Position numbers and translations under genes: made by a program. Positions 1 to 49,117 of a stretch of DNA of 64,000 bases are shown in pieces. The stretch's first letter is position 1. Every line of letters begins with the position of its first letter. The stretch is from an uncultured bacterium. GTDB lineage: Bacteria; Krumholzibacteriota; Krumholzibacteriia; LZORAL124-64-63. Location of the stretch: positions 3,677 through 67,676 of the forward strand of contig CALEMW010000233.1 in assembly GCA_937910695.1 (NCBI GenBank), given 5' to 3'. The notes beneath the pieces were generated by a model. That model did no database searches and was not told the DNA's origin. It saw only the letters and a list, made by a program, of their open reading frames with translations.

Positions 1-592
1 AACCTTGGAGGTGGGCCTGGGCAGGCACGTAGCGGTGCATTTCCCCATACAGCCGCACGGCATCGCATACCTCGCGCCGATAGATCTTCAGACCGCAGTT
101 GTGGTCGTGGAGTTTGATGCCCGTGGCCAGGGACGTCGCTCCGTTGTAGAGCTTGGATGTGGTGTTTTTGACGAAGGAGTCCTTGCGGGCCTGCTTCCAG
201 CCCGAAACCAGATCCCACCCTTCCTGGAGTTTTGCAACGAGTCGGGGAATCTCAGCCGGGTCGTCCTGCAGGTCGGCATCCATGGTCACGATCAACGGCG
301 CTCGAGCCGCCGCGAAGCCGGCGGAGAGGGCGGCGGCCTTGCCGTAGTTCCGCGTGAACTGGATGGAGTGGACTTCCGGATGGGATACGCGCAGCTGATC
401 GACGACGGCCTGGGTGGCGTCGGTGCTGCCGTCGTCGACGATCCAGACCTCGTGGGTCAACCCCATGCCGTCTACGGCTTCGGAGATGCGTGCCACGAGT
501 TCCGGCAGGGAGTCTGCCTCGTCGAGAGCTGGAACGACGACCGAGAGGTCAGGCGTTGGCGAACCTGCAAAGAGATCGGTCTGATCAACCAC
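1..592 (-). CDS. GT2 polyprenol-phosphate glycosyltransferase (DPM1/ArnC-like), C-terminally truncated by window edge
   Basis: Manual translation of the reverse strand gives ...VVVPALDEADSLPELV...WIVDDGSTDAT...IQFTRNYGKAAALSAGF...VTMDADLQDDP...SGWKQARKDSF..., the classic GT2 DXD-containing fold. A likely GTG start at 592 lies 3 nt upstream of the epimerase stop. The gene is not in the ORF track because its stop lies outside the window. Confidence 0.75.
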   Translation of the reverse strand, partial: MVDQTDLFAGSPTPDLSVVVPALDEADSLPELVARISEAVDGMGLTHEVWIVDDGSTDATQAVVDQLRVSHPEVHSIQFTRNYGKAAALSAGFAAARAPLIVTMDADLQDDPAEIPRLVAKLQEGWDLVSGWKQARKDSFVKNTTSKLYNGATSLATGIKLHDHNCGLKIYRREVCDAVRLYGEMHRYVPAQAHLQG

Positions 593-1637
593 GGGCTCGT
601 CTCCTGGCGACGACCCAGGCCACTTCTCGGCGCAACCCCTCGGCGAAGGGAACAGCCGCTTTGTAACCCAGCTCGTCATGGATGTGGGAGGGATCGGCCC
701 AAGTGTCACGCACGTCTCCCTCAACCCTGTTTTGGTAGTCGATGGTCGGGACGAGGTCGGGCGCCTCCTCTCCCAGATAATCCCTCATCATCTCGAGGGC
801 TTCGGTCAGCGTGATGCAGGCGCCACCGCCCACGTTGTAGACAGCCCAGGGATGGGGCGCGCCAACAGCCAGCAGATTCGCCCGCACCGCGTCGGCGACG
901 AAGGTGAAGTCGCGGGTCTGACTCCCGTCACCGTAGACCAGCCAGGGTTTCCCGTCGAGGGCCGCCTCGAGGAACTTGCGGAAGGCCATGTCGGGACGCT
1001 GACGAGGACCATAGACCGTGAAGTAGCGCAGGCTCGAGGTGGGCACGCCGAAGTTGGCTCCGTAGAGCACGCACAGATGTTCCGCCGCGAGCTTGGTCAC
1101 ACCGTAAGGTGAGAACGGCTGAGGCAAGGCGGCCTCGCTGACCGGCAGATCGGTGCGGTCGCCGTAGATGGAACTGCTGCTCGAATAGACGAAGCGTACG
1201 AGCCCTTCGGCCACACTGGGGTCCTTGCAGGCTTCCAGCAGGCGTTGGGTGGCTTGGACGTTGCGGTCGAGATAGTCCCCGAACTGGCCGCCCCAACTGG
1301 CACGGACACCGGCCTGAGCCGCCAGGTGGAACACGGCGCGGGCTCCGGCCAGCAGCTCCACGGCGTCGACATCGTTGATGTCGCGCTCAAGAAAGGTCAT
1401 GCGTGGGTGGTCGCAGAAGGTCGCGAGGTTTTCACGCTTGAGGGACGTGTCGTAGTAGTCGGTGACGCAGTCGATGCCCGTCACTTCGCACCCCAGCGCC
1501 AGCAAGGCCTCGCAGAGGTGGCTGCCGATGAAACCGGCGCAGCCGGTCACCACCACCCGGGGAGATTCCGTAAGCACGACGGGCAGACTCGCATCGGGCA
1601 TGCCTTCGAGAACCGTGTCGCATCGCCAGTCCATCAT
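585..1637 (-). CDS. NAD-dependent epimerase/dehydratase (UDP-sugar epimerase/decarboxylase family)
   Basis: Rossmann motif VVVTGCAGFIGSHLCEAL and a YxxxK-type SDR core (YGVTKLAAE). Start may be the internal M (MPDASL...). Confidence 0.85.
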   Translation of the reverse strand: MMDWRCDTVLEGMPDASLPVVLTESPRVVVTGCAGFIGSHLCEALLALGCEVTGIDCVTDYYDTSLKRENLATFCDHPRMTFLERDINDVDAVELLAGARAVFHLAAQAGVRASWGGQFGDYLDRNVQATQRLLEACKDPSVAEGLVRFVYSSSSSIYGDRTDLPVSEAALPQPFSPYGVTKLAAEHLCVLYGANFGVPTSSLRYFTVYGPRQRPDMAFRKFLEAALDGKPWLVYGDGSQTRDFTFVADAVRANLLAVGAPHPWAVYNVGGGACITLTEALEMMRDYLGEEAPDLVPTIDYQNRVEGDVRDTWADPSHIHDELGYKAAVPFAEGLRREVAWVVARRRARG

Positions 1638-1660
1638 CGCACTCCGTTCAGGGTCGAGAC

Positions 1661-4354
1661 TCAGTCGTCGTCGGTGGAGGTGCCCGGTCCGTAGGGGTTG
1701 GTCACGCCGGAGGCCAGCAACTCGATGGCTTCGGCCATTTCCGGGCTGGGTCGCCCGAACTGCTGGGTCCAGAGTGCTTGGACCTCACGGCACCCTTCCA
1801 GATCGTTCAGCGAACGCCTCACCTTGAAGAGAATTTGGTAGTAGACGAGACGCTCCGGTTCGACGAGGAGCCGCCGTTCGATCCACTCGTCCGCCTTGTC
1901 GCCGTAGCCGAGGCTCGTGAGAGCCGTGCCGACCTGCAAGAGGGCGGACTCCTCGTCCTGGGGCGGGATCCGACCGGCGATCACATCCAGATGTGTGATG
2001 GCATCGTCGACGCGCCCCAATTCGACCAGCACCGAAGGATAGACGTCCGGCATCATCAGGAATGTCGGGTCGAAGCTACGGGCCACCTCGTAGGCGGCCA
2101 TGGAGCGGCGGAGCTGGGTCTTGTAGCCCTCGTCGTCGTCCATCGGAGTCTCCCGGGCGGCGTTGAGGAATTCAAGACCAGCACGGATCAGGCCCGCCGG
2201 ATAGTTGCCCGCCAGGTAGGTGGCGTTGTGGCTGTAATGGATGTCGGTGCGGAAATCGCCGAGGTTCTGCCACAACCCCTCGACATCCCAGACGCGGTCG
2301 GTGCAGATTTCCGCCGAATCGCCTCGGCTCAAAGCATCGCTCAACCCGTTCTTGGCGGCGAACTCGGCGCGGCGGGCCTGGCTGTCGCCGCTGAGGGTTG
2401 CGCTGTAGTCGTACACGCCGTACATGTTGGCCAACATGCGCTCGGCGTTCACAGACGGCAGGCCGTTCTCGACCTTGCGTCCCGTGAAGCGATAGGCCAG
2501 CCCCTCCATCTGGAGCATGTCGTAATACCGCTCCATGTTCTCGAGCGGGATCGTTACGGCGAAAAAGATCGGCCGCTTGCCGAAGGCCGTATTGATGATG
2601 TCGTGAGTGATGTAATCCTTCACCCAGACGATCTCTTCGGCGCCGGAGTCCGGGTCCTGGAAGCGAGTCGCCCGCAGTTCGTCGACCTCACGGTCGCTGT
2701 AGGAGCAGGGCATCGCTGGCGTGCGACTCTTCATCTGCTTGATGTACCAGGGAAGGTTGATGAGGCTGAGGTTCACCACCGTCACATCGCGACGGAAGCC
2801 CTCCACCTCCTGCAGGTACCAGAGCGGGAAGGTGTCGTTGTCGCCGTTGGTGAAGACGACCGAATCGGGATCCAGGCCCGCCAGCAGGTTCCAGGCGTAC
2901 TCGTGGGCGACACGACTTCCGGTGCGGTCGTGCTCGAACCATTTCACGTGGCCGGGCCAGACCACCGGGGCCGCCGCAATCAGAATGAGCGCCACCGCAA
3001 ACCCTGCCGCCAATGGCTTGACCTTCGCAGCAGCCGCAGCCACGCCCACTCCCAGTTCGTTGCGCGACTTGCCCAGCGGTCCGTTCAAGAACCGCGGGAG
3101 CGCCGCCGCTCCCAGACCGATAAACAGAGCGAAGAACAGGAAGCCCGACGAGAAAAAGTAATCGCGTTCTCGGACTTCGTGGTCGGAGAAGTTCAGGTAG
3201 AAGTTCAGGATCTCGCCGTTGATCAGATAATTCACAAGCAGCATGATTGCGATCTTGCGCGACCGCCACAGACCGTGCACCACGCCCAGGAAAGCCAGGA
3301 ACATGGGCACCGCGAACACGGACAGGCGGGTGATCAGGACGTCTTTGGTGTCGAGCCAGCTGAACTGCTGGAACAGGTAGTTGTAGTAGTAGCCTATCTG
3401 CCAGCCGAGCTCCGCCTTGCGCGGAATCAACTTCATCGTCGGGTATTGCTCGCGACGCAGCACGGACATGAGGGTTTCGAACGTGTCGGGCTGAGTCTGA
3501 TTGATGGCCGGGTCCAGGCCGGCGCGGATCATCATGAACAGGTGTACCGAAATGCCCAGCAGAAACACGCCGCAGGCGGCGAGGATGATCGGACGACGGC
3601 CGAAGGCCCTTACGACTCCGACGGCCAACAGGACCATCGTCGCTCCCACCAGCACAAAGTCGTCCTTGATCATGGTCGACATCATGAACAGACCCAAGGC
3701 AGCGCTCACGCCGAACAGATCGATGATGTCGATGCGTTTGCGGTCGGACAGCAGGATCAGCAGAAATATGCCGGGATAGACGAGCAGCGATCCGAGATGG
3801 AAACCTACGCCGAGACCGAGCATGTAGACGATGAGGTAGATCAGCCTCTGGCTGTCCTTCTGCTCCCGGACGTCGTACCACTTCAAGGCCACCCAGGTCA
3901 GCGAGCTGACGATGAAGCCCGAGAGGCCGTAGACTTCGGCTTCGATGGCGTTGTTCCAAAAGGTCTCGCTGAACATCAAAAACAAAGCGCCGGTCAGGCC
4001 CCCCGCATGAGCGAGCCAGCCGCTGTCGGGGTCGCTGCGGCGGGCGACGTTCACGATGATCAGGTAGAGGAACATCACGGCCAAGGCGCTGAAGAAGCCC
4101 GACATGAAGTTCACCGCGACCGCCGTGGTCGTGAACGGCGAGAGCAGGACATCGAAGGTGCGTCCCATCAGCACGTACAGAGGCGTGCCCGGCTGATGCG
4201 GTATGCCCAGGATATGACTGGTGGCGATGTACTCGCCGCAATCCCAGAAGCTGAGGGTCGGTGGAAGCGTCAGACCGTAGACGATGAGGCCCAGCAGAAA
4301 GACAGCGGTGGCCAACAGGGTCGTGGGACGCTGCATCCGTTCAACGACGGTCAT
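1661..4354 (-). CDS. DUF2723/TMEM260-like polytopic membrane protein (predicted GT-C glycosyltransferase) with C-terminal TPR repeats
   Basis: N-terminal motif FWDCGEYIATSHILGIPHQPGTPLYVLMGR, many TM helices and a TPR-like C-terminal third. Start ambiguous (4405, 4354 or 4336). Confidence 0.7.
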   Translation of the reverse strand: MTVVERMQRPTTLLATAVFLLGLIVYGLTLPPTLSFWDCGEYIATSHILGIPHQPGTPLYVLMGRTFDVLLSPFTTTAVAVNFMSGFFSALAVMFLYLIIVNVARRSDPDSGWLAHAGGLTGALFLMFSETFWNNAIEAEVYGLSGFIVSSLTWVALKWYDVREQKDSQRLIYLIVYMLGLGVGFHLGSLLVYPGIFLLILLSDRKRIDIIDLFGVSAALGLFMMSTMIKDDFVLVGATMVLLAVGVVRAFGRRPIILAACGVFLLGISVHLFMMIRAGLDPAINQTQPDTFETLMSVLRREQYPTMKLIPRKAELGWQIGYYYNYLFQQFSWLDTKDVLITRLSVFAVPMFLAFLGVVHGLWRSRKIAIMLLVNYLINGEILNFYLNFSDHEVRERDYFFSSGFLFFALFIGLGAAALPRFLNGPLGKSRNELGVGVAAAAAKVKPLAAGFAVALILIAAAPVVWPGHVKWFEHDRTGSRVAHEYAWNLLAGLDPDSVVFTNGDNDTFPLWYLQEVEGFRRDVTVVNLSLINLPWYIKQMKSRTPAMPCSYSDREVDELRATRFQDPDSGAEEIVWVKDYITHDIINTAFGKRPIFFAVTIPLENMERYYDMLQMEGLAYRFTGRKVENGLPSVNAERMLANMYGVYDYSATLSGDSQARRAEFAAKNGLSDALSRGDSAEICTDRVWDVEGLWQNLGDFRTDIHYSHNATYLAGNYPAGLIRAGLEFLNAARETPMDDDEGYKTQLRRSMAAYEVARSFDPTFLMMPDVYPSVLVELGRVDDAITHLDVIAGRIPPQDEESALLQVGTALTSLGYGDKADEWIERRLLVEPERLVYYQILFKVRRSLNDLEGCREVQALWTQQFGRPSPEMAEAIELLASGVTNPYGPGTSTDDD

Positions 4355-4452
4355 GGTTCCCCCAGGGGATAGAAGGTCCGAAATGCAATCGGGCCAAGTT
4401 ATCACACGCGATCAAGGCCAACAAGCTCCCCTACGCAGAGTTCCCTGCCATG

Positions 4453-5406
4453 TCAGGCTGCGCGGCGGCGTCCGATCAGGAAAAGGACGCCGCCGACCAG
4501 GCTGACGGCCACCTGTACCAGCCAGGCCACGAACTCCATGGCCACCGCCGGCGCTTCGGCAGCGGTTACGCCGATGCTCACGAACAGACTCGCCGCCGCC
4601 ATTTCCCGCAATCCGAGGCCGTTCATGCTCACAGGCAAGGAGATCAGGATACCCAGTACCGGCACCGCCACGAAGAGGTGGAGGATCTGGGTATTGCTGA
4701 AGGTCAACCCCAATCCCCATCCCGCCAGCAGATGTGTCAAGACACGCATGAACTGGACGACGAGCGAGAACAGGAACAGACGGCTCAACCAACGCGGCCG
4801 CTCCCGGAAGCGACGGAATTCCTCCAGGAATCCCGCCAATCGTTCGGCGGGCCATGACCAAGGCAGCCTCTTCAGTGAACCCACCAGGAACGTGGACACG
4901 CGGCGGGACAACAGCACCGTCAAACCACCGCCCCAGACGATCATGGCGAGCAGGAGCAACTTCAGCAGCATGCCGTCGAGGATCCTCGCCAGGCCGAGAG
5001 TGACCAGGGCGAGGATCGTCAAAGCAAGCAGCCCAACCAGGCGATCGAGGGCCGTGGCGCCCAGGACTGTGGCGGTACGCCCCTCACGACGCCCCAGGTC
5101 CACGACCTTGACCGCATCGCCCCCCACGTTGCCCAACAGAAAATTGTTGAAGAACATGCCGACCCAGTACACACGGACCATCTCTCCCAGGGGAGTGCGC
5201 AGACCGGCTGTGCGCAGAATCCAGGCCCATTGCAAGGCCCCACCGAGGGCCGAGGCGGCGAACACGGCTACCGCAGCGCCGAGCCAGCCCCAATGCGGTT
5301 GTGCCAAGGATTCACCGACGGTGGCGAGAGGGATCCTCTTCGACAGCACGAAGATCAGCAGGATGCTGACCGTCAACCGCATCAGCAGGACGCGGGCGCC
5401 TTTCAC
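4453..5406 (-). CDS. Flippase-like domain membrane protein (TIGR00374 / lysylphosphatidylglycerol-synthase TM-region family)
   Basis: Motif FFNNFLLGNVGGDAVKV with about 8 TM helices. GTG start overlaps the GT4 stop (GTGA). Confidence 0.65.
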   Translation of the reverse strand: MKGARVLLMRLTVSILLIFVLSKRIPLATVGESLAQPHWGWLGAAVAVFAASALGGALQWAWILRTAGLRTPLGEMVRVYWVGMFFNNFLLGNVGGDAVKVVDLGRREGRTATVLGATALDRLVGLLALTILALVTLGLARILDGMLLKLLLLAMIVWGGGLTVLLSRRVSTFLVGSLKRLPWSWPAERLAGFLEEFRRFRERPRWLSRLFLFSLVVQFMRVLTHLLAGWGLGLTFSNTQILHLFVAVPVLGILISLPVSMNGLGLREMAAASLFVSIGVTAAEAPAVAMEFVAWLVQVAVSLVGGVLFLIGRRRAA

Positions 5407-6527
5407 GGCCGGACGCCCTTGGCCGCAACCTCGGCGAACAGGTCCAGCGATTCCGCGACGCAGCGTTCCCAGGTGAAGGTATCGGCCCAGGTACGGGCAT
5501 TCTCGCTGCAGGAGCGCCAGAGTTCAGGATCGCGGAGAAGCATCAATGCGGCATCGGCCATAGCATCGGGGTCGCCGTAGGGCACGAGCAGGCCCGTCTC
5601 CCCGTCCTGGACCGAATCCACCAGACCGGGTCGGTCGCTGGCCACCACGGGCAGACCGCAACAGTTGGCCTCGATGACCGTGAGTCCCCACCCCTCCTTG
5701 GGACTGGGATTGAGGAAAACCGAGGCGCGATGGAGGACGGCTACCAGATCGTTCCACTCGAGGTGGCCGCTGAACTCGATGATGTCGGCGAGGCCATGGC
5801 TCTCGACGTGCTTGCGCAGGCGGTTTTCGTCCGGCCCCCGCCCCATGATGAGCATCCGCGCCTCGGGGATGGCGGCGTGGATGTAGGTGAAGGCGTCGAC
5901 GGCCACGTCCACACTCTTGTACTTGCGCAGGCGGCTCCAGCTCACGACCAGAGGTGGATCGTCGCGAGCAGGCGGGTCTTCGAGATTGAAGCGGCCGTGG
6001 TCCATACCGCAGAACACCGTCGTCACCCTGTCCCGACTCACGCCACGGGCCGTGAGATCGTCTGCGGTCGAGGGGCTGATGACCTCGAAATGCACGTTGC
6101 GGTAAACGGCGGGGATCAACTGCTCCGAACCCCACACGTATGTAGCCACCAACGGATTGGTCTCACGGAACACCGTGGTTCCGAACAGATGAGGTATGAC
6201 GGCCAGGACAGGAACGCCGCCGCTGTAGAGGGGCGTGTAGAAAGGGATCTTGTTGATGTCCTCGACGATCAGGTCGTAGCGTTCGGCTTTGAGCAGACCC
6301 TTCACCACGCCGGGCAGAACGTAGTTGGCCACCGACCAGTGCCCCTTGCGATGGATCCTCACACCGTCGACGACTTCGGTGCTCGGCGCGCCTGCGTAGG
6401 CCGACACCACGAGGTCCACCTCATGCCCGGCGGCAACGGCGCCCTTGAGGATTTCGTGCAGATGCAGCTCGGCGCCGCCGCCGAGGGGGTCGCCGATGTC
6501 GCGCCAGTTGACTGCGAGGATCTTCAT
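5403..6527 (-). CDS. Glycosyltransferase family 4 (GT-B)
   Basis: MKILAVNWRDIGDPLGGGAELHLHEI... with a EX7E-like C-terminal GT4 core (PSPKEGWGLTVIEANCCGLPVVASD). True ATG at 6527 overlaps the upstream stop (ATGA). The track ORF is N-terminally over-extended. Confidence 0.85.
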   Translation of the reverse strand: MKILAVNWRDIGDPLGGGAELHLHEILKGAVAAGHEVDLVVSAYAGAPSTEVVDGVRIHRKGHWSVANYVLPGVVKGLLKAERYDLIVEDINKIPFYTPLYSGGVPVLAVIPHLFGTTVFRETNPLVATYVWGSEQLIPAVYRNVHFEVISPSTADDLTARGVSRDRVTTVFCGMDHGRFNLEDPPARDDPPLVVSWSRLRKYKSVDVAVDAFTYIHAAIPEARMLIMGRGPDENRLRKHVESHGLADIIEFSGHLEWNDLVAVLHRASVFLNPSPKEGWGLTVIEANCCGLPVVASDRPGLVDSVQDGETGLLVPYGDPDAMADAALMLLRDPELWRSCSENARTWADTFTWERCVAESLDLFAEVAAKGVRP

Positions 6528-7324
6528 CGACTGCCTCCGGGGAACGAATCGGGTTTGCGGATCACGACGCCGATAGTCATGCAGGTGTACAGGGCCCAAC
6601 GACGTTCCTTGTTGCGCCCGCGCCATCGGGCCATGGACCTGCCGAGCGGCGGAATCGGATCGGGGTACATGGGCAGACGCAGGCCCAGCTTCGCCAGCAG
6701 CGTCTTGCGCACGGCCCGGTACCACAGTCCCGGCACCATCCAGTCGCCGTAGGTGCGCACGACCGTCCCTCCCGCCCGACGCGCCATTTCCTCGAGTTCG
6801 CCGGGTGTGAACTGAGTTTCCCAGCCCGCGAACCAGCGGTCCAGGGCGATCAATAATTTTTTGCCGAGGGTGTAGTAGTGCCAGGTCTGGGGAACGTCCA
6901 CCACGAGGTAGCCGCCAGGCTTCACCACACGCAGGTCTTCACGCAGCATGTCCAGGGGATTGCGGAAGTGTTCGAGTAGCCCCTGATGGAAGACCAGGTC
7001 GAAGGTGTCGTCGGCGAAGGGCTTGCCGAAGGCGTCGCCGCCGACGGGGTGCACGGTCACGCCGGCCGCAGCGGCGGCCTGCAAAGTCAGCACCAGGGAG
7101 CCCGGCACGTAGTCGAGGGTCCAAACATCGGCCCCCGCGACCGCAAGGGCCACGGCGTCGCGGCCTGTACCCGCCCCCACCTCGAGCACGGACTTGCCCA
7201 CGGGATCGCCGAGGCCGAAGAGTTCGCGTTCGAGACGGCCGTCGTTGCCGTACACGTCGTCGAGAGAAAGGCGGTCGGCCTCCTCCCAGAACCGCTGCCA
7301 GTGTCCACGGGTGGTCCGTCTCAC
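6524..7324 (-). CDS. Class I SAM-dependent methyltransferase (type 11)
   Basis: Motif VLEVGAGTGRDAVALA. GTG start overlaps the nusB stop (GTGA). The track ORF is over-extended at the 5' end. Confidence 0.7.
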   Translation of the reverse strand: MRRTTRGHWQRFWEEADRLSLDDVYGNDGRLERELFGLGDPVGKSVLEVGAGTGRDAVALAVAGADVWTLDYVPGSLVLTLQAAAAAGVTVHPVGGDAFGKPFADDTFDLVFHQGLLEHFRNPLDMLREDLRVVKPGGYLVVDVPQTWHYYTLGKKLLIALDRWFAGWETQFTPGELEEMARRAGGTVVRTYGDWMVPGLWYRAVRKTLLAKLGLRLPMYPDPIPPLGRSMARWRGRNKERRWALYTCMTIGVVIRKPDSFPGGSR

Positions 7325-7749
7325 GGCTGCTCCGGCGCCGGGCCGTCGATGATCTCCTTCGCGGCGCGGTCGAGCAGGCCGTTGACGAACCCGACAGCCT
7401 TCTCGTCGCAGAACAGCCGCGCCACTTCGCAGGCCTCGTTGATCACGACGTTGCGAGGCACCTCGGGGCAATAGCGCAGCTCGGCGATGGCGAGGCGGAA
7501 GATCGCCCGCTCCACGTTGCCCACCCGCTCCGGATTCCAGTTCTCCAGCAGAACATTCAGATCGGCGTCGATCTGCTTGCCGTTGGCCGCGATACGCCCC
7601 GCCAACGGGCGCACGAAGGCGGCGGTCTCGGCCGAGGCTTGACGTCGCTCGAGCTGATCGTCGAGGCAGTCCATCAGGTCGCCGCCACTGATGGCGGAGG
7701 CGTAGAGGGCTTGAACCAGAAGTTCACGCCCCTTGCGTCGTTTCCCCAT
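7321..7749 (-). CDS. nusB: Transcription antitermination factor NusB
   Basis: 142 aa with typical NusB length and motifs (ELLVQALYA...AIFRLAIAEL). Conserved position downstream of ribH. Confidence 0.9.
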   Translation of the reverse strand: MGKRRKGRELLVQALYASAISGGDLMDCLDDQLERRQASAETAAFVRPLAGRIAANGKQIDADLNVLLENWNPERVGNVERAIFRLAIAELRYCPEVPRNVVINEACEVARLFCDEKAVGFVNGLLDRAAKEIIDGPAPEQP

Positions 7750-7757
7750 CGGGTCTC

Positions 7758-8261
7758 CTAACCGGCGTCGATGGCCTTCCAGAGGTCGATCATTTCGAGG
7801 GCCGTCATGGCAGCGTCGAATCCCTTGTTGCCCGCCTTAGTTCCGGCGCGCTCAATGGCTTGGTCCAGGGTCTCGGCGGTGATCACACCGAACGTGACCG
7901 GCACGCCGCTGTCCAACGAAACCTGGGCGATGCCCTTGGTGACTTCGCTGCTGATGTAGTCGAAGTGGGGCGTGTCGCCCTGGATCAGACAGCCCAGGCA
8001 GATGACCGCGGCATAACGGCCCGAGGCCACCAGGCGTTTGGCGGCCATGGGGATCTCGAAGCTGCCTGGTACCCAGGCCACATCCACGTCGTCGTCGGAC
8101 ACGCCGTGACGGCTCAAACAGTCCTTGGCGCCTTCGAGCAGTTCACCCACGATGAATTCGTTGAAGCGGCTGCCCACGATGGCGATCCTGCCGTCGCCTG
8201 CTTGGTAGTTTCCGGAAAAGGTCTTACCCACGTCGTCCTCCTCGTCTCGGTCGTGAATCAT
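7758..8261 (-). CDS. ribH: 6,7-dimethyl-8-ribityllumazine synthase
   Basis: [21 protein letters not shown]...[11 protein letters not shown]...[22 protein letters not shown] at 8261 overlaps the ribBA stop (ATGA). The upstream part of the track ORF is a spurious extension. Confidence 0.9.
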
Positions 8262-9496
8262 CCCCTGTCCAGGGCTTCCTCGTCCAGATGTTCCAGCATG
8301 TGGCCCATCCGGTCCTTCTTGGTCTGCAGATAGCGGCGGTTGCTCTGATTGGGCGCCACCTCGAGCGGAACACGCCCGAGCAGCTCCAGGCCGTAGCCTT
8401 CGAGGCCCACGAGTTTGCGTGGGTTGTTGGTCATCAGGTTCATGCGCCGAACGCCCAGGTCGCGCAGGATCTGGGCGCCGATGCCGTATTCGCGCAGGTC
8501 GGCGCCGAACCCGAGGCGGTGGTTGGCCTCGACCGTGTCGGCGCCTTCGTCCTGGAGCTGGTACGCCTTGAGCTTGTTGACCAGGCCGATGCCCCGCCCC
8601 TCCTGCCGCATGTAAAGCACGATGCCGCAGCCCTCGCGATCGATCTGGGCGAGGGCTCCTTCGAGCTGCTCGCCGCAGTCGCAGCGCAGGGAGTGGAAGA
8701 GGTCGCCGGTCATGCATTCCGAGTGCACGCGCACGAGGGTTGGCGTGTCAGGATCGGGGTCGCCCTTGACCATCGCCACATGCTGGCTTTCGTCCACCGT
8801 GGTCGAGTAGGCGACGATGCGGAAGTCTCCGAAACGCGTGGGCATGGGGACTTCGACCTCGCGGCGTACGAGCTTTTCGTTGGTGCGTCGGTAGGCGATC
8901 AGATCGGCGATGGAGATGAGCTTCAGGTCGAATTCCGCGGCGATCACGCGCAGGCGCGGCAGGCGGGCCATGCTGCCGTCGTCGTCCATGATCTCGCAGA
9001 TGATCCCCGAAGGGTGCAACCCGGCCAGCTCGGCGAGGTCCACCGACGCCTCGGTGTGACCGGCGCGCTTGAGCACGCCGCCGGGCTGGGCTTCGAGAGG
9101 GAAGATGTGGCCCGGTCGTCCGAGATCGCCGGGCTTCGAGGCGGGGTCGATCATCACCGCGATGGTGCGGGCCCGATCGGCGGCGGAAATACCGGTGGTG
9201 ATCCCCTCGGCCGCGTCGACCGAGACCGTGAAGTGCGTGCGCAGGCGCGCCGTATTCAGAGCCACCATCGGCGGCAGCTCCAGTTCGCGGGCCCGCTCCC
9301 GTGTGATGGCGGCGCAGATCAGGCCGCGGCCGTGCTTCGCAAGGAAGTTGATCGCCGCCGGCGTTGCCTTTTCGGCGGCGACGACGAAGTCACCCTCGTT
9401 TTCACGGTCTTCGTCGTCGACCACGATCACGATCTCGCCGGCGCGAACGGCGGCGATGGCCTCCTCCACCTTGTCGAGCGTCACATCGTCGCGCAT
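8258..9496 (-). CDS. ribBA: Bifunctional 3,4-dihydroxy-2-butanone-4-phosphate synthase / GTP cyclohydrolase II
   Basis: DHBP synthase N-terminal half ([13 protein letters not shown]) and GTP cyclohydrolase II C-terminal half (CECMTGD..., RxGxGxG). ATG at 9496 has a GGAG Shine-Dalgarno. Confidence 0.9.
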
Positions 9497-9518
9497 GGAG
9501 TCTCCTCGTTCCGGTTGA

Positions 9519-10202
9519 TCAGCGACGTCCACGGCGGAAACCGCGGGCGGTGATGTCGTTCACGGTCAGGCCGCGGCGCGGTTCGCCCGCAGCTCTGAGG
9601 GTCTCGCTGGCCGAGCGTGCCACACCGGCGGCGCTGCCCTTGGCCAGCACATCGGCTTCGAGATTCACCCGGGTCCCCGTCTTCATCTCTATGAAACGGG
9701 TCCAGGACAGGGTGTGCGGAATCAGGCTCACGGTGAAAGCCTCGACGAAAGGACCCGCGTCGAGGGTGAGGCTGACGCCGTCGATGGCGATGGACCCCTT
9801 GGGCAACAGCCAGGTCGCGACCTCGTCGGGGGCGCTGAACGTCAGCAGCAGGTTTTCCCCGAGTCGGCGGCGGCGGCGAAGCACGCCCACGCCGTCGATG
9901 TGGCCGAGAACCAGGTGGCCGCCCAACGGATCGCCGGCCCGCAGCGCCGGCTCCAGGTGCAGTCGGCGTCCCGATCGCCAGGTTGCCAAAGTGGTCACGC
10001 TGCGGGTCTCGTTCACGGCGTCGAGCTGGACCAGCTCTCCGCGACGGCCCGCGACCGTCAGGCAGATGCCGTCGACGGCCAGGCTGTCCCCCATGCTCAG
10101 CCCCGGTGCCGACGCCGGGGCGTGAACCCACAGCTTCGTCACCGTCCCGCGCCGGGAGGCCGTACGCAGGGTGCCGATTTCACGGACAAGCCCGGTGAAC
10201 AT
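9519..10202 (-). CDS. ribE: Riboflavin synthase alpha subunit
   Basis: [12 protein letters not shown]... with the duplicated lumazine-binding repeats ([13 protein letters not shown] / [12 protein letters not shown]). Confidence 0.9.
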
Positions 10203-10203
10203 C

Positions 10204-11346
10204 TCAGTCCCTCCTGCGGGCGGTCAGGACGAGACGGGTCGCGAGAAAATCGAGGCGATCCCAGATCAGATAGGCGTCCCGATCGCTGCGGGTGGCCCGG
10301 GTCAAATGGAAGTCCGAGTGGTCCAGGCCCGGCTGGAAACCTACGGGCCAACGCACGCCGTCGCCGACGATCGTCGGCGCCGTGAACTGGAGCCAGCGGT
10401 CGACCAGGCCGGCGGCGAGGAACGACGACGCCAGCCGGGGCCCGCCCTCGACCATGATCACGGCGTGACCGGCCTGGTGGGCCCGACGCAGGATGGAGGC
10501 AGGTTCGACGCGGCCGTCCACGGCATCGCAGCGCAGGACGGTCGTGCCTCTCGCAGTCAACTGCGCGGCGGAATTCTCGGAAGCAGCGGACGAGGTGAAG
10601 ACCGTGACAGCATCGTTCCGCCAGGCGAGCGCCGTGGTGAGGTCCGTGTCCACACAGGCGGGCACGGGGTCTCGTCGAGGCGACCAGTCGGAGCCCTCGG
10701 CGCGGCGGCCGTCCAGACGCGGAGCATCAGCTCGGACCGTGCCGGCGCCCACCAGCACCATGTCGCACCAGCGTCGCTGACGATGCACCTCGTCGAGGGA
10801 TTCGTCGCAGGTGAGATAAAATGGTTCGCCGAGACGGGCGTCCGCCGGGGCGAAGACGCCGTCGATGCTTTGGGCCGTCTTGAGCACCACGAAGGGACGT
10901 GTGAAGGCGTCGGTCACCACGAAGGGCCAGATGAGTTCGAGACAACCCCGGGCCATCACGCCGATGTCGACCTTGATGCCCGCCGCCCTGAGGATCTCCA
11001 CGCCGCCGCCGGCCACATGCGGGTTGGGGTCGCGGATACCGATCACGACCCGCTGGACGCCGCTCGCGATCACCAGCGGCACGCAGGGTGCGGTCCGTCC
11101 CTGATGATTGCAGGGCTCGAGTGTGACATAGAGGGTCCCGCCGCTGGCGCGGTCACCGGCCTGGGTCAGAGCCAAGACCTCGGCGTGGGGCGTGCCCGGG
11201 CCGTCATGGGCTCCGCGTCCGACGATCTCGCCGTCGCACACGACCACGGCACCGACCGGTGGGTTGGGCCAGGGACGCGCCTCGATGTCGCGCGCCGTAC
11301 GGTGCGCCTCGCTCATGAAATGATTGTCTGTGGTTGTAGCCGCCAT
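10204..11346 (-). CDS. ribD: Bifunctional diaminohydroxyphosphoribosylaminopyrimidine deaminase / 5-amino-6-(5-phosphoribosylamino)uracil reductase
   Basis: CMP/dCMP deaminase zinc motif (HAEVLAL...LYVTLEPCNHQGRTAPC) plus a C-terminal reductase domain. Start placed at MAATTTDNHFMSEAH by alignment to the RibD N-terminus. The track ORF runs into the riboswitch. Confidence 0.85.
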   Translation of the reverse strand: MAATTTDNHFMSEAHRTARDIEARPWPNPPVGAVVVCDGEIVGRGAHDGPGTPHAEVLALTQAGDRASGGTLYVTLEPCNHQGRTAPCVPLVIASGVQRVVIGIRDPNPHVAGGGVEILRAAGIKVDIGVMARGCLELIWPFVVTDAFTRPFVVLKTAQSIDGVFAPADARLGEPFYLTCDESLDEVHRQRRWCDMVLVGAGTVRADAPRLDGRRAEGSDWSPRRDPVPACVDTDLTTALAWRNDAVTVFTSSAASENSAAQLTARGTTVLRCDAVDGRVEPASILRRAHQAGHAVIMVEGGPRLASSFLAAGLVDRWLQFTAPTIVGDGVRWPVGFQPGLDHSDFHLTRATRSDRDAYLIWDRLDFLATRLVLTARRRD

Positions 11347-11423
11347 GATCCTGAACTTGGTTGTTCGGGGCGGTAGGCAGACAGGAAGGGACGCCCCGCT
11401 TTGCAGCGGCGCGCCGGCTCCCA

Positions 11424-11550
11424 ACTTCTACCATCCAGACTTTAACTGTCGGCTCCGGAATTCCACCGAATCAACCGGCCGCGCCGAAGCGCAGACGGGT
11501 CGCGGGCTGTGACCGCCGGTGGGGAATTGCACCCCGCCCCGAAGTTGAGT
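11424..11550 (-). promoter_or_regulatory. FMN riboswitch (RFN element) in the ribD leader
   Basis: Minus-strand sequence contains CUUCGGGGCGGGGUGCAAUUCCCCACCGGCGGU ... GCCGACAGUUAAAGUCUGGAUGGUAGAAG, matching the conserved RFN cores (GGGUGAAAUUCCC-ACCGGCGGUA and GCCGACAGUGAAAGUCUGGAUGG-AGAAG). Confidence 0.8.
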
Positions 11551-19409: not shown

Positions 19410-19622
19410 GGGCCTGCCGATCCGGCTGGGGGTCGGGGACATATGACGAATCACGGCCGGGCGGCCGACCGTGGCCGACAAATCTACCAGACGATCCGCC
19501 TGCTGTCCAGAAGACCGCCGCGGGTTCCCGACCTCGCAGCCCCCTTCAACGCAAACTTGGAACCTGTTCTGGACACGGGAGTTGCCGTGCTCCTATGCTG
19601 TGGCCCGAGGAAGGAGACTCCC

Positions 19623-42683: not shown

Positions 42684-42783
<100 letters not shown>

Positions 42784-42821
42784 ATCATATCGCGTCCGGG
42801 ACGATTGCCCCAGAGAAAAGG

Positions 42822-42897
42822 TGGTGGAGATGATCGGGTTCGAACCGACGACCCCCACGTTGCGAACGTGGTGCTCTCCCAGCTGAGCTACATCCCC
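42822..42897 (-). tRNA. tRNA-Ala (anticodon CGC)
   Basis: GGGGAUGUAGCUCAGCUGGGAGAGCACCACGUUCGCAACGUGGGGGUCGUCGGUUCGAACCCGAUCAUCUCCACCA. G3:U70 identity pair present and CCA is encoded. Confidence 0.85.
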
Positions 42898-42925
42898 ACC
42901 TGAACTGAGATCACGAGAACGGCGC

Positions 42926-43015
42926 TGGCGGAGAGGCAGGGATTCGAACCCTGGGAACACTTGCGTGCTCAACGGTTTTCGAGACCGCCCCGTTCAACCA
43001 CTCCGGCACCTCTCC
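42926..43015 (-). tRNA. tRNA-Ser (anticodon CGA)
   Basis: GGAGAGGUGCCGGAGUGGUUGAACGGGGCGGUCUCGAAAACCGUUGAGCACGCAAGUGUUCCCAGGGUUCGAAUCCCUGCCUCUCCGCCA. Class II long variable arm. Anticodon loop CUCGAAA. Near-identical anticodon arm to E. coli serU. Confidence 0.85.
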
Positions 43016-43049
43016 ACGCCGTATCCGTCCCTGAGCACGGGACAGAGAA

Positions 43050-43137
43050 TGGCGGAGAGTCAGGGATTCGAACCCTGGGTGCCTTGCGACACACACGATT
43101 TCCAGTCGTGCCGATTCGACCGCTCTCGCAACTCTCC
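43050..43137 (-). tRNA. tRNA-Ser (anticodon GGA)
   Basis: GGAGAGUUGCGAGAGCGGUCGAAUCGGCACGACUGGAAAUCGUG...GGGUUCGAAUCCCUGACUCUCCGCCA. Anticodon loop CUGGAAA and long variable arm. Confidence 0.85.
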
Positions 43138-49098: not shown

Positions 49099-49117
49099 AC
49101 CTATTCAGTTTTCTTGC

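What the first reader, a model, noticed from the sequence alone, without database searches (positions are those of the whole stretch)
1..7324. Candidate lipid-linked glycosylation module: GT2 polyprenol-P glycosyltransferase, epimerase, DUF2723/TMEM260-like GT-C with TPR, flippase-like protein, GT4 and methyltransferase
Six co-directional, tightly packed and partly overlapping genes. A DPM1/ArnC-type GT2 would make a polyprenol-phosphate monosaccharide. The TIGR00374 flippase-like membrane protein is often fused or adjacent to such GT2s. The 914-aa DUF2723 protein has the TMEM260 core motif FWDCGEY...HQPGTPL and a C-terminal TPR domain. The human homolog TMEM260 was recently shown to be a protein O-mannosyltransferase using Dol-P-Man. 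Bacterial DUF2723 proteins are uncharacterised. The arrangement predicts a periplasmic protein- or glycan-directed glycosyltransfer pathway fed by a lipid-linked sugar, analogous to PMT/ArnT systems.
Basis: partly seen in the sequence, partly recalled or inferred. Interest (0 to 1): 0.55.

Follow-up and report, generated by a model that had tools for sequence, protein, structure and literature searches.

The report
Bacterial TMEM260-like periplasmic glycosylation operon
This is a real, tightly coupled operon in an uncultured Krumholzibacteriota-like bacterium, built around a bacterial relative of the human protein O-mannosyltransferase TMEM260, and it offers a concrete way to test what this large uncharacterised bacterial enzyme family does.

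Summary
Six co-directional minus-strand genes fill window 1-7324: a partial ArnC-like GT2, an SDR epimerase, a GT117/DUF2723 GT-C (897 aa), an MprF-type flippase-like protein, a GT4 and a methyltransferase. They are joined by ATGA/GTGA overlaps.

- **Catalytic residues.** The GT117 protein matches human TMEM260 (E 1.8e-22). It keeps D52, H67 and the luminal catalytic base D441 as D38, H53 and D505. All three are invariant in 37 homologues.
- **Synteny.** Partner genes are conserved across several phyla of the Fibrobacterota-Chlorobiota-Bacteroidota (FCB) group.

Three corrections apply.

- The operon is larger than described. It is fused to ribH-nusB upstream. Beyond position 1 it continues with a second GT2, a YfhO-like second GT-C, a Dol-P-Man-synthase-like GT2 and a GT2 fusion protein.
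- The most widely conserved partners are the methyltransferase, the GT4, the flippase-like protein and the DPM-like GT2. The epimerase and ArnC-like GT2 are confined to one clade.
- The epimerase is closest to UDP-GlcA 4-epimerases, so it and the ArnC-like GT2 may supply polyprenyl-P-GalA, possibly to the YfhO-like enzyme.

My best reading is a periplasmic glycosylation pathway fed by polyprenyl-phosphate sugars, most likely protein O-glycosylation. No biochemistry exists for any bacterial member. I rate it a new variant of a known kind, of moderately high interest.

The parts
1..592 (-). GT2a: the N-terminal 197 aa of a 319-aa ArnC/GtrB-type polyprenyl-phosphate glycosyltransferase. It runs off the window start.
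   Evidence: Pfam PF00535 E 5e-32. The best NCBIfam match is ArnC, at 139 bits for the partial protein and 174 bits over model positions 7-293/316 for the full protein. Both are below the equivalog cut-off. The GTG start at 592 overlaps the SDR stop by 8 nt. The full gene was read in L081:13763-14722.
585..1637 (-). SDR nucleotide-sugar epimerase, most similar to UDP-glucuronate 4-epimerases.
   Evidence: Pfam Epimerase E 1e-54. The best PDB matches are 6zl6/6zlj (E 3.6e-72, 247 bits) and MoeE5 6kv9 (E 2e-60). That 6zl6 and 6kv9 are UDP-GlcA 4-epimerases is my own knowledge; the codes are cited beside the Iacovino 2020 paper. No NCBIfam equivalog is reached.
1661..4354 (-). GT117 / DUF2723 / TMEM260-like GT-C glycosyltransferase, 897 aa. 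The alternative GTG start at 4405 would give 914 aa.
   Evidence: PF11028 at 175 bits. Human TMEM260 9rql matches at E 1.8e-22 in two stretches. It is 100% identical to P0001, which carries PF11028 and PF28495. The AF2 model has pLDDT 81.5 and pTM 0.79 and shows a TM domain, an alpha/beta domain and helical repeats. The best Foldseek hits are AglB and STT3.
4187..4249 (-). First periplasmic loop motif F36-W-D38-C-G-E41 ... H53-Q-P-G56. This is the counterpart of the TMEM260 sugar-recognition motif containing D52 and H67.
   Evidence: HMMER alignments place D38 opposite D52 and H53 opposite H67. Both are invariant in A1 (28 sequences) and A2 (9 sequences). D52A and H67A inactivate human TMEM260.
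3443..3457 (-). R300-R301-E-Q-Y304: a candidate counterpart of the TMEM260 donor-loading-loop residues R264 and Y267.
   Evidence: The motif is invariant in A1 and conserved as REQY in A2. It has the same R-x-x-Y spacing and lies in a low-confidence loop between TM helices. HMMER did not align it to 9rql, so this part is an inference only.
2834..2848 (-). N503-G-D505-N-D507 in the periplasmic alpha/beta domain. D505 is the counterpart of the TMEM260 catalytic base D441.
   Evidence: HMMER aligns ...FTNGDND... with ...LRGDLPG... of 9rql. R439-G440-D441 are named, and D441A abolishes activity. The residue is invariant in A1 and A2.
1712..2230 (-). C-terminal helical-repeat (TPR-like) domain of the GT117 protein, residues about 709-881.
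   Evidence: The AF2 model shows helices only in this region. phmmer and the profile hit designed TPR proteins (E 0.0085 and 0.001). Foldseek hits CTPR, MamA, PilF and the OGT TPR at probability 1.00. There is no Pfam TPR hit in this protein, although some homologues carry PF13428.
4453..5406 (-). Stand-alone MprF-type flippase-like membrane protein, 317 aa.
   Evidence: PF03706 LPG_synthase_TM E 4.8e-31, above its cut-off. TIGR00374 scores 32.7, below its cut-off of 43.2. It is present next to GT117 in 18 of 80 loci, and 15 of those 18 also carry GT2a or GT2c.
5403..6527 (-). GT4 (GT-B, retaining) glycosyltransferase, 374 aa.
   Evidence: Pfam Glycos_transf_1 E 4e-40 plus Glyco_transf_4. It has only generic PDB and NCBIfam relatives such as BshA, PimB and MshA. 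The start is the ATG at 6527, in an ATGA overlap with the MT stop. Orthologues scoring 230-580 bits lie beside GT117 in 23 of 80 loci.
6524..7324 (-). Class I SAM-dependent methyltransferase, 266 aa.
   Evidence: Pfam Methyltransf_11/25/23. It has weak relatives among sugar O-methyltransferases (MftM, 3bus, 6uv6) and phosphoethanolamine N-methyltransferases. The GTG start at 7324 sits in a GTGA overlap with the nusB stop. Orthologues scoring 210-390 bits lie beside GT117 in 18 of 80 loci.
7321..7749 (-). nusB (context). It is translationally coupled to the methyltransferase gene and marks the conserved chromosomal position of the cluster.
   Evidence: TIGR01951 at 117 bits, above its cut-off. 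The arrangement ribH-nusB followed by the GT117 cluster occurs in 13 of 80 loci from several phyla.

Best explanation
Window 1-7324 is the first part of a long operon for glycosylation on the outer face of the inner membrane, fed by polyprenyl-phosphate-linked sugars. The full order is ribH, nusB, MT, GT4, flippase-like, GT117, epimerase, GT2a, GT2b, YfhO-like, GT2c, GT2d.

The proposed mechanism has four steps.

1. On the cytoplasmic face, GT2 enzymes of the ArnC/DPM1 class load a monosaccharide onto undecaprenyl phosphate. GT2c lies beyond the window and is Dol-P-Man-synthase-like; it would make polyprenyl-P-mannose or another hexose. GT2a, together with the adjacent UDP-GlcA 4-epimerase-like SDR, would make polyprenyl-P-galacturonate.
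2. The MprF-type flippase-like protein moves the lipid-linked sugar to the periplasmic leaflet.
3. The GT117 GT-C enzyme binds the donor in its transmembrane domain through D38, H53 and probably R301/Y304. It transfers the sugar with inversion to a hydroxyl that D505 of its periplasmic alpha/beta domain activates. The acceptor is held by the TPR-like domain. By homology with TMEM260 it is most likely a Ser or Thr in an extended segment of an exported protein.
4. GT4 and the methyltransferase are cytoplasmic and are the most widely conserved partners. They most likely add and O-methylate a further sugar on a lipid-linked intermediate of the same pathway.

What is shown: the gene identities, the operon structure, the conservation of catalytic residues, the three-domain architecture and the cross-phylum synteny. 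What is inferred: the donor sugar, which GT2 serves which GT-C, the flippase substrate, the protein acceptor, and the roles of GT4 and MT.
For: - **Family and residues.** PF11028 scores 175 bits. Human TMEM260 9rql matches at E 1.8e-22, and the alignments pair D38 with D52, H53 with H67 and D505 with D441. These residues are essential in the human enzyme and invariant in 28 + 9 bacterial homologues.
- **Architecture.** The AF2 model (pLDDT 81.5) shows a multi-pass TM domain, an alpha/beta domain and a helical-repeat domain, as in TMEM260. Its best solved-structure matches are the GT-C oligosaccharyltransferases AglB and STT3. The 430-residue C-terminal part is soluble and acidic and follows the last TM helix.
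- **Donor synthases.** GT2a's best match is ArnC over the whole model. GT2c's only PDB relative is P. furiosus Dol-P-Man synthase, E 1.9e-25. The SDR's best matches are 6zl6 and MoeE5.
- **Operon.** Start and stop codons overlap, and there is no promoter or terminator signal inside.
- **Synteny in 80 loci.** The counts are GT4 23, MT 18, FLP 18, GT2c 17, GT2a 10 and SDR 9, always on the same strand as GT117. FLP is accompanied by GT2a or GT2c in 15 of its 18 loci. It occurs without GT4 or MT in 4 loci: L020, L021, L036 and L052.
- **GT2c tracks GT117.** KSB1-type loci keep GT117, FLP and GT2c without any YfhO-like gene. So GT2c follows GT117 independently of the second GT-C.
Against: - No experiment exists for any bacterial GT117.
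- The central region carrying the putative R264, Y267 and R355 equivalents could not be aligned to TMEM260.
- Two GT2 synthases and two GT-Cs share the operon, so pairing by adjacency (GT117 next to SDR-GT2a) conflicts with pairing by phylogenetic breadth (GT117 with GT2c).
- 44 of 80 loci show GT117 with none of these partners nearby.
- Cytoplasmic GT4 and MT do not fit a simple transfer of one sugar.
- No candidate acceptor protein or TMEM260-type IPT sequon was found in the window.
- MprF-type flippase domains are known for glycerolipids, not for polyprenyl-phosphate sugars.
Confidence: 0.55

Rival explanations
1. The acceptor is not a protein. The GT117 enzyme would decorate a lipid or glycan such as LPS core or lipid A, a glycolipid, a peptidoglycan-linked polymer or an exopolysaccharide. 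The sugar would be galacturonate taken from polyprenyl-P-GalA, made by the adjacent epimerase and ArnC-like GT2. This would work like Rhizobium RgtE with RgtA-D, or like ArnC with ArnT.
For: - In this genome GT117 is immediately followed by a UDP-GlcA 4-epimerase-like SDR and an ArnC-like GT2.
- Most bacterial three-component GT-C systems modify glycans or lipids (own knowledge; PMC11127046 is listed).
- No acceptor protein was identified.
Against: - The only characterised family member is a protein O-mannosyltransferase. Its acceptor-activating base (D441) and its peptide-gripping alpha/beta and TPR domains are conserved here.
- SDR and GT2a accompany GT117 in only 9-10 of 80 loci, and every locus with the YfhO-like GT-C also has GT2a. 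The GalA donor may therefore belong to the YfhO-like enzyme.
Confidence: 0.2
2. The six genes are not one pathway. MT, GT4 and the flippase-like protein would form a separate glycolipid module: a cytoplasmic GT makes a (methylated) glycosyl-lipid, and the MprF-type protein flips it, as proposed for C. difficile HexSDF. GT117 would work with other genes and merely share the transcript.
For: - HexF is a stand-alone MprF flippase-domain protein in an operon with a glycolipid-forming GT.
- GT4 and FLP are translationally coupled by a GTGA overlap.
- GT4 has weak similarity to glycolipid and PI-mannoside GT4 enzymes.
- MT has weak similarity to phosphoethanolamine N-methyltransferases.
Against: - MT and GT4 sit next to GT117 without FLP in about 11 loci, for example L031, L038, L042, L061 and L062.
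- FLP sits next to GT117 without MT or GT4 in 4 loci. In L036 FLP is directly adjacent to the ArnC-like GT2.
- Each of the three therefore tracks GT117 rather than the other two.
Confidence: 0.15
3. GT117 acts as an en-bloc O-oligosaccharyltransferase. A short glycan would be built on polyprenyl monophosphate: GT2c adds the first hexose, GT4 a second sugar and MT a methyl cap. The glycan is then flipped and transferred whole to Ser/Thr. This would be analogous to the Dol-P-linked glycans of haloarchaeal AglB pathways.
For: - It gives the cytoplasmic, widely conserved GT4 and MT a role in the same pathway.
- GT2a and GT2c show similarity to AglJ and to haloarchaeal Dol-P-hexose transferases.
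- MT resembles sugar O-methyltransferases.
- KSB1-type loci add an RmlD-like gene.
Against: - TMEM260 transfers a single mannose that stays unextended.
- No GT-C using a monophosphate-linked oligosaccharide is known in bacteria (own knowledge).
- No structural evidence for a larger donor pocket was obtained.
Confidence: 0.1

Closest known systems
Human TMEM260 (CAZy GT117), the protein O-mannosyltransferase for IPT domains of plexins, cMET and RON (PMC10214176; bioRxiv 10.64898/2026.03.17.711096; PDB 9RQL/M/N)
   Same: - It belongs to the same Pfam families (PF11028 and PF28495).
- The sequence match is significant in the TM loop-1 region and in the luminal alpha/beta domain.
- The D52, H67 and D441 equivalents are conserved.
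- The order of domains is the same: GT-C TM domain, Rossmann-like domain, TPR-like domain.
   Different: - Overall identity is low outside the two aligned stretches.
- The bacterial protein is about 190 residues longer than the human one, with extra sequence between the alpha/beta and TPR parts.
- It is periplasmic rather than ER-luminal, and the carrier would be undecaprenyl rather than dolichyl.
- It is encoded in an operon with a flippase-like protein, a GT4, a methyltransferase and GT2 synthases.
- The donor sugar and acceptor are unknown, and no IPT-type sequon was found nearby.
Bacterial three-component periplasmic glycosylation systems: GtrA/GtrB/GtrC, ArnC/ArnEF/ArnT, CsbB/GtcA/YfhO, Rhizobium RgtE with RgtA-D (own knowledge; PMC11127046 listed)
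   Same: The logic is the same: a GT2 makes a polyprenyl-P-monosaccharide, a small membrane protein flips it, and a GT-C transfers it outside the cytoplasm. An ArnC-like GT2 and an epimerase that could give a GalA donor are present.
   Different: - The GT-C belongs to GT117, not to GT83, GtrC or YfhO.
- No GtrA or ArnE/F-type flippase is present. The candidate flippase is an MprF-type domain.
- A conserved GT4 and methyltransferase are extra components.
- Two synthases and two GT-Cs share one operon.
PMT/POMT (GT39) with Ppm1 or DPM1: classical protein O-mannosylation in fungi, animals and Actinobacteria
   Same: It shares the predicted chemistry, which is inverting transfer from polyprenyl-P-Man to Ser/Thr on the non-cytoplasmic face. 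It also has a loop-1 acidic residue and a DPM-synthase-like partner (GT2c).
   Different: There is no Pfam PMT or PMT_2 match and no MIR domain. The catalytic base lies in the soluble domain rather than in loop 1.
C. difficile HexSDF glycolipid operon (PMC10128005)
   Same: A stand-alone MprF flippase-domain protein is encoded next to a cytoplasmic glycosyltransferase.
   Different: There is no deacetylase. The operon here is associated with GT-C enzymes and polyprenyl-P-sugar synthases. The organism is Gram-negative and belongs to the FCB group.
YfhO proteins, predicted in July 2026 to be the Bacteroidota general O-glycosylation OTase (bioRxiv 10.64898/2026.07.27.740950)
   Same: A distant YfhO-like GT-C lies four genes downstream of GT117 in the same operon (L081:15696-18254). 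All 7 of its orthologues hit Pfam YfhO and nothing else.
   Different: It lies outside the window. It matches YfhO only below the gathering score (best E 1.7e-7). Its relation to the Bacteroidales YfhO was not tested.

Membership tests
GT117 / TMEM260-like (PF11028 + PF28495) | Pfam PF11028 above the gathering score. | tested here: met
   It scores 175.1 bits against a cut-off of 24.2, E 1.6e-51. The identical database protein P0001 carries PF11028 and PF28495.
GT117 / TMEM260-like (PF11028 + PF28495) | Significant sequence similarity to human TMEM260. | tested here: met
   9rql_A matches at E 1.8e-22 with the single sequence and 2.7e-23 with the profile. Two stretches are covered: TM loop 1 to TM5, and the luminal domain.
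GT117 / TMEM260-like (PF11028 + PF28495) | Loop-1 sugar-recognition motif residues D52 and H67. | tested here: met
   D38 and H53 are aligned to them. Both are invariant in A1 and A2.
GT117 / TMEM260-like (PF11028 + PF28495) | Catalytic base D441 in the soluble Rossmann-like domain. | tested here: met
   D505, in NGDND, is aligned to the RGD441 motif. It is invariant in A1 and A2.
GT117 / TMEM260-like (PF11028 + PF28495) | Donor-loading-loop residues R264 and Y267, and R355 in TMH10. | tested here: inconclusive
   Invariant R301-x-x-Y304 and R395/R397 lie at plausible positions. No alignment to 9rql was obtained for this region.
GT117 / TMEM260-like (PF11028 + PF28495) | Three-domain 'hand' architecture: GT-C TM domain, alpha/beta domain and TPR domain. 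| tested here: met
   The AF2 secondary structure and domain order agree. Foldseek hits GT-C OSTs and TPR proteins. Direct superposition on 9RQL was not possible, because the structure is not in the fold library.
GT117 / TMEM260-like (PF11028 + PF28495) | Transfers mannose from polyprenyl-P-Man to protein Ser/Thr. | not testable with these tools
   This needs biochemistry or glycoproteomics.
Three-component periplasmic glycosylation system (Gtr/Arn/CsbB-GtcA-YfhO type) | A GT2 polyprenyl-phosphate monosaccharide synthase. | tested here: met
   GT2a matches ArnC at 174 bits over the whole model. GT2c matches Dol-P-Man synthase 5mlz at E 1.9e-25. Neither reaches an NCBIfam equivalog cut-off.
Three-component periplasmic glycosylation system (Gtr/Arn/CsbB-GtcA-YfhO type) | A GtrA-family or ArnE/F (SMR-like) flippase. 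| tested here: not met
   No such protein is encoded in the operon. The only candidate belongs to PF03706, the MprF flippase domain.
Three-component periplasmic glycosylation system (Gtr/Arn/CsbB-GtcA-YfhO type) | A GT-C transferase encoded with the synthase. | tested here: met
   Both GT117 and a YfhO-like protein lie in the same operon.
MprF flippase-domain family (PF03706 / TIGR00374) | Match above the curated cut-off. | tested here: inconclusive
   PF03706 scores 108.8 against a cut-off of 33.4, which is met. TIGR00374 scores 32.7 against 43.2, which is not met. The protein has no synthase domain and is only 317 aa long.
UDP-glucuronate 4-epimerase | Closest characterised relatives are UDP-GlcA 4-epimerases, and an equivalog model is reached. 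| tested here: inconclusive
   The top PDB hits are 6zl6 (247 bits) and MoeE5 (208 bits), clearly above the UDP-GlcNAc and UDP-Glc epimerases at about 136 bits or less. No NCBIfam equivalog is reached. Substrate-determining residues were not examined.
PMT/POMT (GT39) protein O-mannosyltransferases | Pfam PMT or PMT_2 domain and a MIR domain. | tested here: not met
   Only PF11028 is found in the 914-aa ORF at E <= 0.01.
YfhO family (the 852-aa protein beyond the window start) | Pfam PF09586 above the gathering score. | tested here: not met
   It scores 23.9 bits against a cut-off of 28.5, and only over the C-terminal 50 residues. All 7 orthologues hit YfhO and nothing else, best E 1.7e-7. It is YfhO-like but not a demonstrated member.

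The most novel reading that the evidence does not exclude
The GT117 enzyme, the YfhO-like GT-C and the MprF-type flippase-like protein encoded together here could be the long-missing periplasmic machinery of FCB-group general protein O-glycosylation. Under this reading GT117 is the initiating O-mannosyltransferase, YfhO-like is the ligase or extender that adds further sugar to the protein-bound glycan, and the MprF-type protein is the flippase for the lipid-linked core sugar. GT4, MT and, in some lineages, an RmlD-like enzyme would provide the methylated deoxyhexose of the core.

This would also make bacterial GT117 the evolutionary source of the metazoan TMEM260 pathway, and MprF-type domains a new class of polyprenyl-phosphate-sugar flippase.

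Nothing here excludes this reading. The Bacteroidota core is Man, Rha and hexuronic acid, carries methyl groups, and has an undiscovered OTase, ligase and core flippase. But I could not show that GT117 exists in classical Bacteroidia. Searches returned only MAGs and Balneolales- or Ignavibacteria-type sequences.
Probability: 0.15. Interest if true: 0.85.

Novelty: new variant of a known kind. Interest (0 to 1): 0.58.

Why it matters
The family is large and has no bacterial function assigned. phmmer finds 14,336 clusters at 50% identity with E <= 1e-3 and 6,358 with E <= 1e-10. Its one characterised member is a human disease gene.

This operon gives the family a defined genetic context. It contains candidate donor synthases, a candidate flippase and conserved cytoplasmic partners. 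These can be reconstituted or knocked out in cultivable carriers such as Chlorobiaceae, Balneolales or Ignavibacteria.

It bears on two open problems.

- **Who initiates general protein O-glycosylation in the Bacteroidota/FCB lineage.** The enzyme was still unidentified in July 2026, when YfhO was only predicted.
- **Which proteins flip polyprenyl-phosphate sugars.**

It would also show whether the split active site described for TMEM260 is ancient.

Tried and rejected
- **Aligning the central region.** phmmer of residues 255-440 alone against PDB gave no TMEM260 match. The R264, Y267 and R355 equivalents therefore stay inferred.
- **Looking for GT117 in model Bacteroidia.** Two large protein searches with 'Bacteroidota'-labelled queries returned only MAGs, Ignavibacteria-like and Balneolales or Fodinibius sequences. 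They also showed that several MAG taxonomy labels are unreliable. L038 ('Chitinophagaceae') is 74% identical to an 'Ignavibacteriales' protein, and L063 ('Chitinophagales') is Balneolales-type. The link to Bacteroidota O-glycosylation is therefore left as a low-probability novel case.
- **Candidate acceptors.** Scanning the window's ORFs for the TMEM260 IPT-type sequon found none. Counts of the D-S/T-[ALVIMT] motif are too small to test.
- **Internal signals.** The promoter and terminator scan found nothing useful. FCB-type promoters are not covered by that scan.
- **Other libraries.** NCBIfam has no model for the GT117 protein. A PDB profile search for the YfhO-like protein gave nothing.
- **Rejected readings.**
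  - The plus-strand ORFs overlapping the genes (for example 1778-4372, 864 aa) are not genes. They are mirror ORFs of a high-GC coding region.
  - A genomic island or horizontally acquired cassette is unlikely. GC content is like the flanks, the flanks are housekeeping genes, and the position beside ribH-nusB is conserved across phyla.

Full report
**1. Observation**

| Gene | Coordinates | Size | Key evidence |
|---|---|---|---|
| GT2a (ArnC-like GT2) | 1-592 | 197 of 319 aa | Pfam Glycos_transf_2 E 5e-32; best NCBIfam match ArnC |
| SDR | 585-1637 | 350 aa | Pfam Epimerase E 1e-54 |
| GT117 (DUF2723/TMEM260-like) | 1661-4354 | 897 aa | PF11028, 175 bits against a cut-off of 24 |
| FLP (flippase-like protein) | 4453-5406 | 317 aa | PF03706 E 4.8e-31; TIGR00374 below its cut-off |
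| GT4 | 5403-6527 | 374 aa | Pfam Glycos_transf_1 E 4e-40 |
| MT (class I SAM methyltransferase) | 6524-7324 | 266 aa | Pfam Methyltransf_11/25/23 |

- The mechanical GT117 ORF reaches 4405, which would give 914 aa. The ATG at 4354 is the more likely start. It has a Shine-Dalgarno-like GGGGGA upstream and gives the 897-aa protein found at 100% identity in public assemblies.
- The junctions are GTGA (nusB/MT), ATGA (MT/GT4), GTGA (GT4/FLP), a 98-nt spacer (FLP to GT117), a 23-nt spacer (GT117 to SDR) and an 8-nt overlap (SDR/GT2a).
- There is no sigma-70-like promoter in 1-11000. The three terminator-like sites are fewer than the shuffle expectation.
- The long plus-strand ORFs are mirror ORFs of a high-GC coding region.

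**2. Organism and wider context**

The closest relatives of the GT117 protein come from MAGs labelled Krumholzibacteriia, Latescibacteria and Eisenbacteria.

A public contig that is 99.97% identical over window 1-7749 (L081) shows what lies beyond position 1. After GT2a come four more genes:
- GT2b, a second GT2 of 314 aa.
- An 852-aa polytopic membrane protein. Its only Pfam similarity is a sub-threshold match to YfhO, which all 7 of its orthologues share (best E 1.7e-7).
- GT2c, a 235-aa GT2 whose only PDB relative is Pyrococcus Dol-P-Man synthase (E 1.9e-25).
- GT2d, a 675-aa GT2 fused to a WcaJ-N-terminal-like region.

Upstream lie an FMN riboswitch (11419-11550) and then ribD, ribE, ribBA, ribH and nusB. 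The rest of the window is housekeeping: SMC, FtsY, RecA, DnaX, MnmA, Prs, tRNAs and SRP RNA. GC content matches the flanks. The cluster is therefore a core-genome operon and not an island.

**3. The GT117 protein**

- phmmer against PDB sequences finds human TMEM260 (9rql) at E 1.8e-22 in two stretches. A 28-sequence profile gives E 2.7e-23.
- The alignments pair D38 with D52 and H53 with H67. These are the loop-1 'sugar-recognition motif' residues. They also pair D505, in FTNGDND, with D441.
- The 2026 cryo-EM study reports that D52A, H67A, R264A, Y267A and D441A abolish activity. It identifies D441, in the luminal Rossmann-like domain, as the general base that activates the acceptor Thr.
- D38, E41, H53 and N503-G-D505-N-D507 are invariant in 28 close homologues. 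D38, E41, H53 and the corresponding TNGDND motif are also invariant in 9 more distant homologues.
- An invariant R301-E-Q-Y304 has the R-x-x-Y spacing of R264/Y267. It sits in a flexible loop between TM helices. HMMER did not align this region to TMEM260, so this equivalence is only inferred.
- The AlphaFold2 model (pLDDT 81.5, pTM 0.79) has three parts: a multi-helix membrane domain (1 to about 466), an alpha/beta domain (about 480-640) and C-terminal helical repeats (about 709-881). This is the domain order described for TMEM260.
- The best solved-structure matches are the GT-C oligosaccharyltransferases AglB and STT3. The C-terminus matches TPR proteins.
- The soluble part is acidic and follows the last TM helix. 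With the basic N-terminus before TM1, this places loop 1 and the C-terminal domains in the periplasm.

**4. Neighbourhood conservation**

A genome scan found at least 598 related loci. I examined the best 80, each with up to 10 kb of flank, using phmmer of the operon proteins against six-frame ORFs. The table shows how many loci carry each partner near GT117. Every partner lies on the same strand as GT117.

| Partner near GT117 | Loci (of 80) |
|---|---|
| GT4 | 23 |
| MT | 18 |
| FLP | 18 |
| GT2c | 17 |
| nusB | 13 |
| GT2b | 12 |
| GT2a | 10 |
| SDR | 9 |
| YfhO-like | 6 |

36 of the 80 loci carry at least one glyco partner.

- The full order is conserved in Krumholzibacteriia, Eisenbacteria and Latescibacteria.
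- KSB1-type loci have MT, GT4, GT117, a second GT117 and FLP, followed further downstream by GT2c.
- Ignavibacteria-like loci have GT117, MT and GT4.
- Zixibacteria, Fibrobacterota and Chitinispirillaceae keep nusB next to GT117.
- Chlorobiaceae, Marinimicrobia, Balneolales and others show GT117 alone.

The second refutation test is therefore also not met. Loci are phylogenetically non-independent, several contigs are truncated, and MAG taxon labels are partly unreliable. The counts are descriptive only.

**5. Which synthase feeds which GT-C?**

The SDR is closest to 6zl6/6zlj and to MoeE5 (E 3.6e-72 and 2e-60). These hits score clearly above the UDP-GlcNAc and UDP-Glc 4-epimerases and the dehydratases. 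I know them as UDP-glucuronate 4-epimerases from my own knowledge, and cites the codes beside the Iacovino 2020 paper. The SDR and the ArnC-like GT2a would then make polyprenyl-P-galacturonate, as Rhizobium RgtE does (own knowledge). GT2c is DPM-synthase-like.

- By adjacency, GT117 pairs with SDR and GT2a, and the YfhO-like protein pairs with GT2c.
- By breadth, GT2c follows GT117 and FLP into KSB1-type and Calditrichaceae loci. Those loci have no YfhO-like gene between FLP and GT2c.
- The YfhO-like gene is found only where GT2a is present.
- TMEM260 uses Dol-P-Man, and the two sugar-contacting residues that could be aligned are conserved.

I therefore weakly favour GT2c as the donor synthase for GT117, with SDR and GT2a serving the YfhO-like enzyme.

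**6. The flippase-like protein, GT4 and MT**

- **FLP.** It is a stand-alone MprF flippase domain. In 15 of its 18 loci a polyprenyl-P-sugar-type GT2 is also present. In L036 it abuts the ArnC-like GT2. In four loci it occurs without GT4 or MT. This favours a role in flipping the lipid-linked sugar. The only experimental precedent for such a protein, HexF, is a glycolipid operon, so I keep that as a rival.
- **GT4 and MT.** They have no signal peptide or TM segment, and both use cytoplasmic donors. Their orthologues (210-580 bits) stay next to GT117 from Krumholzibacteriota to Ignavibacteria-like genomes.
- **MT relatives.** The MT has weak relatives among sugar O-methyltransferases (MftM, 3bus, 6uv6) and phosphoethanolamine N-methyltransferases.
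- **Likely role of GT4 and MT.** The most economical reading is that they add and methylate a sugar on a lipid-linked intermediate of the same pathway. That does not fit simple one-sugar transfer, and it is the weakest part of the model.

**7. Comparison with what is known**

- The protein passes every GT117 membership feature that could be tested by sequence (see the membership table).
- It is not a PMT/GT39 member, because it has no PMT or PMT_2 domain, although it probably works like one.
- The operon works like a three-component Gtr/Arn/CsbB-type system. It fails one defining feature, because it has no GtrA or ArnE/F flippase.
- Searches of the paper library found no characterisation of a bacterial DUF2723/GT117 protein. 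The TMEM260 discovery paper only notes 'distant homologs in bacteria'.
- A 2025 review states that the OTase, the ligase and the core flippase of the Bacteroidota general O-glycosylation system are undiscovered. The reducing-end core there is mannose, rhamnose and hexuronic acid, with methyl groups. The review suggests looking for O-mannosylation homologues.
- A July 2026 preprint still calls the OTase unidentified. It predicts YfhO and notes that YfhO is absent from P. gingivalis.

The present operon encodes a TMEM260 homologue, a YfhO-like GT-C, a flippase-like protein, a DPM-like synthase and a uronic-acid epimerase together. This is suggestive. I could not show GT117 in classical Bacteroidia, and the review reports motif enrichment mainly within Bacteroidota. 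I therefore keep the link as a novel case at about 15% probability.

**8. Verdict**

It needs extension in three ways: the operon is larger, the core partners are different, and a second synthase and a second GT-C are present.

I rate it a new variant of a known kind: a GT-C system fed by polyprenyl-phosphate sugars, built on a GT117 enzyme with an MprF-type flippase candidate.

Interest is moderately high. The family is large (14,336 clusters at 50% identity) and uncharacterised in bacteria. The operon also makes two open questions experimentally approachable.

Noticed in passing
L081:14703-21020 (same contig, beyond window position 1): The operon continues with GT2b (314 aa), an 852-aa YfhO-like polytopic protein, a 235-aa Dol-P-Man-synthase-like GT2 and a 675-aa GT2 fused to a WcaJ-N-terminal-like domain that lacks a detectable phosphoglycosyltransferase catalytic domain. 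One operon therefore holds two polyprenyl-P-sugar synthases and two GT-C enzymes.
   Followed up: partly
window 11419-11550 (-) and 7321-7324: An FMN riboswitch (113 bits) precedes ribD-ribE-ribBA-ribH-nusB. The nusB stop overlaps the methyltransferase start (GTGA). On paper the glycosylation genes are therefore contiguous with a riboswitch-controlled operon. The ribH-nusB-GT117 cluster synteny recurs in 13 of 80 loci from several phyla.
   Followed up: partly
L013, L016, L017, L057, L080: These loci carry tandem pairs of full-length GT117 paralogues, each scoring about 320-360 bits to the query. This suggests duplication with divergence in acceptor or donor specificity in KSB1-type and Latescibacterota genomes.
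   Followed up: no
L016:13939-15096, L029:4455-5576, L080:16352-17434 and counterparts in L013, L017, L021, L052: A conserved predicted lipoprotein of about 350 aa, with a signal peptide and a Cys, directly follows the flippase-like gene in KSB1-type loci. An RmlD-like reductase gene directly precedes the DPM-like GT2 (L016:15795-16697, L029:5858-6940, L080:20132-21049). Neither is present in the window's operon.
   Followed up: partly
L038, L062, L016, L063, L029 (record titles): The taxonomy labels of several MAGs look wrong. The 'Chitinophagaceae' GT117 proteins are 74-82% identical to 'Ignavibacteriales' and 'Bacteroidetes bacterium' ones. The best named hits of the 'Chitinophagales' L063 protein are Balneolales and Fodinibius. 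An 'Actinomycetota' MAG carries a KSB1-type locus.
   Followed up: partly
window 17820-22028 (+), 49369-51252 (-), 54464-55870 (-): A 1403-aa ORF carries only a central Amidase_3 domain, at residues 655-838. Two further large ORFs, of 628 and 469 aa, have no Pfam match at E <= 1e-5.
   Followed up: no
window 42685-43137 and 49022-49302 (-): SRP RNA lies next to a tRNA-Ala/Ser/Ser cluster just upstream of dnaX. A second cluster holds tRNA-Arg/Ser/Ser. Four of the seven tRNAs in the window are tRNA-Ser.
   Followed up: no
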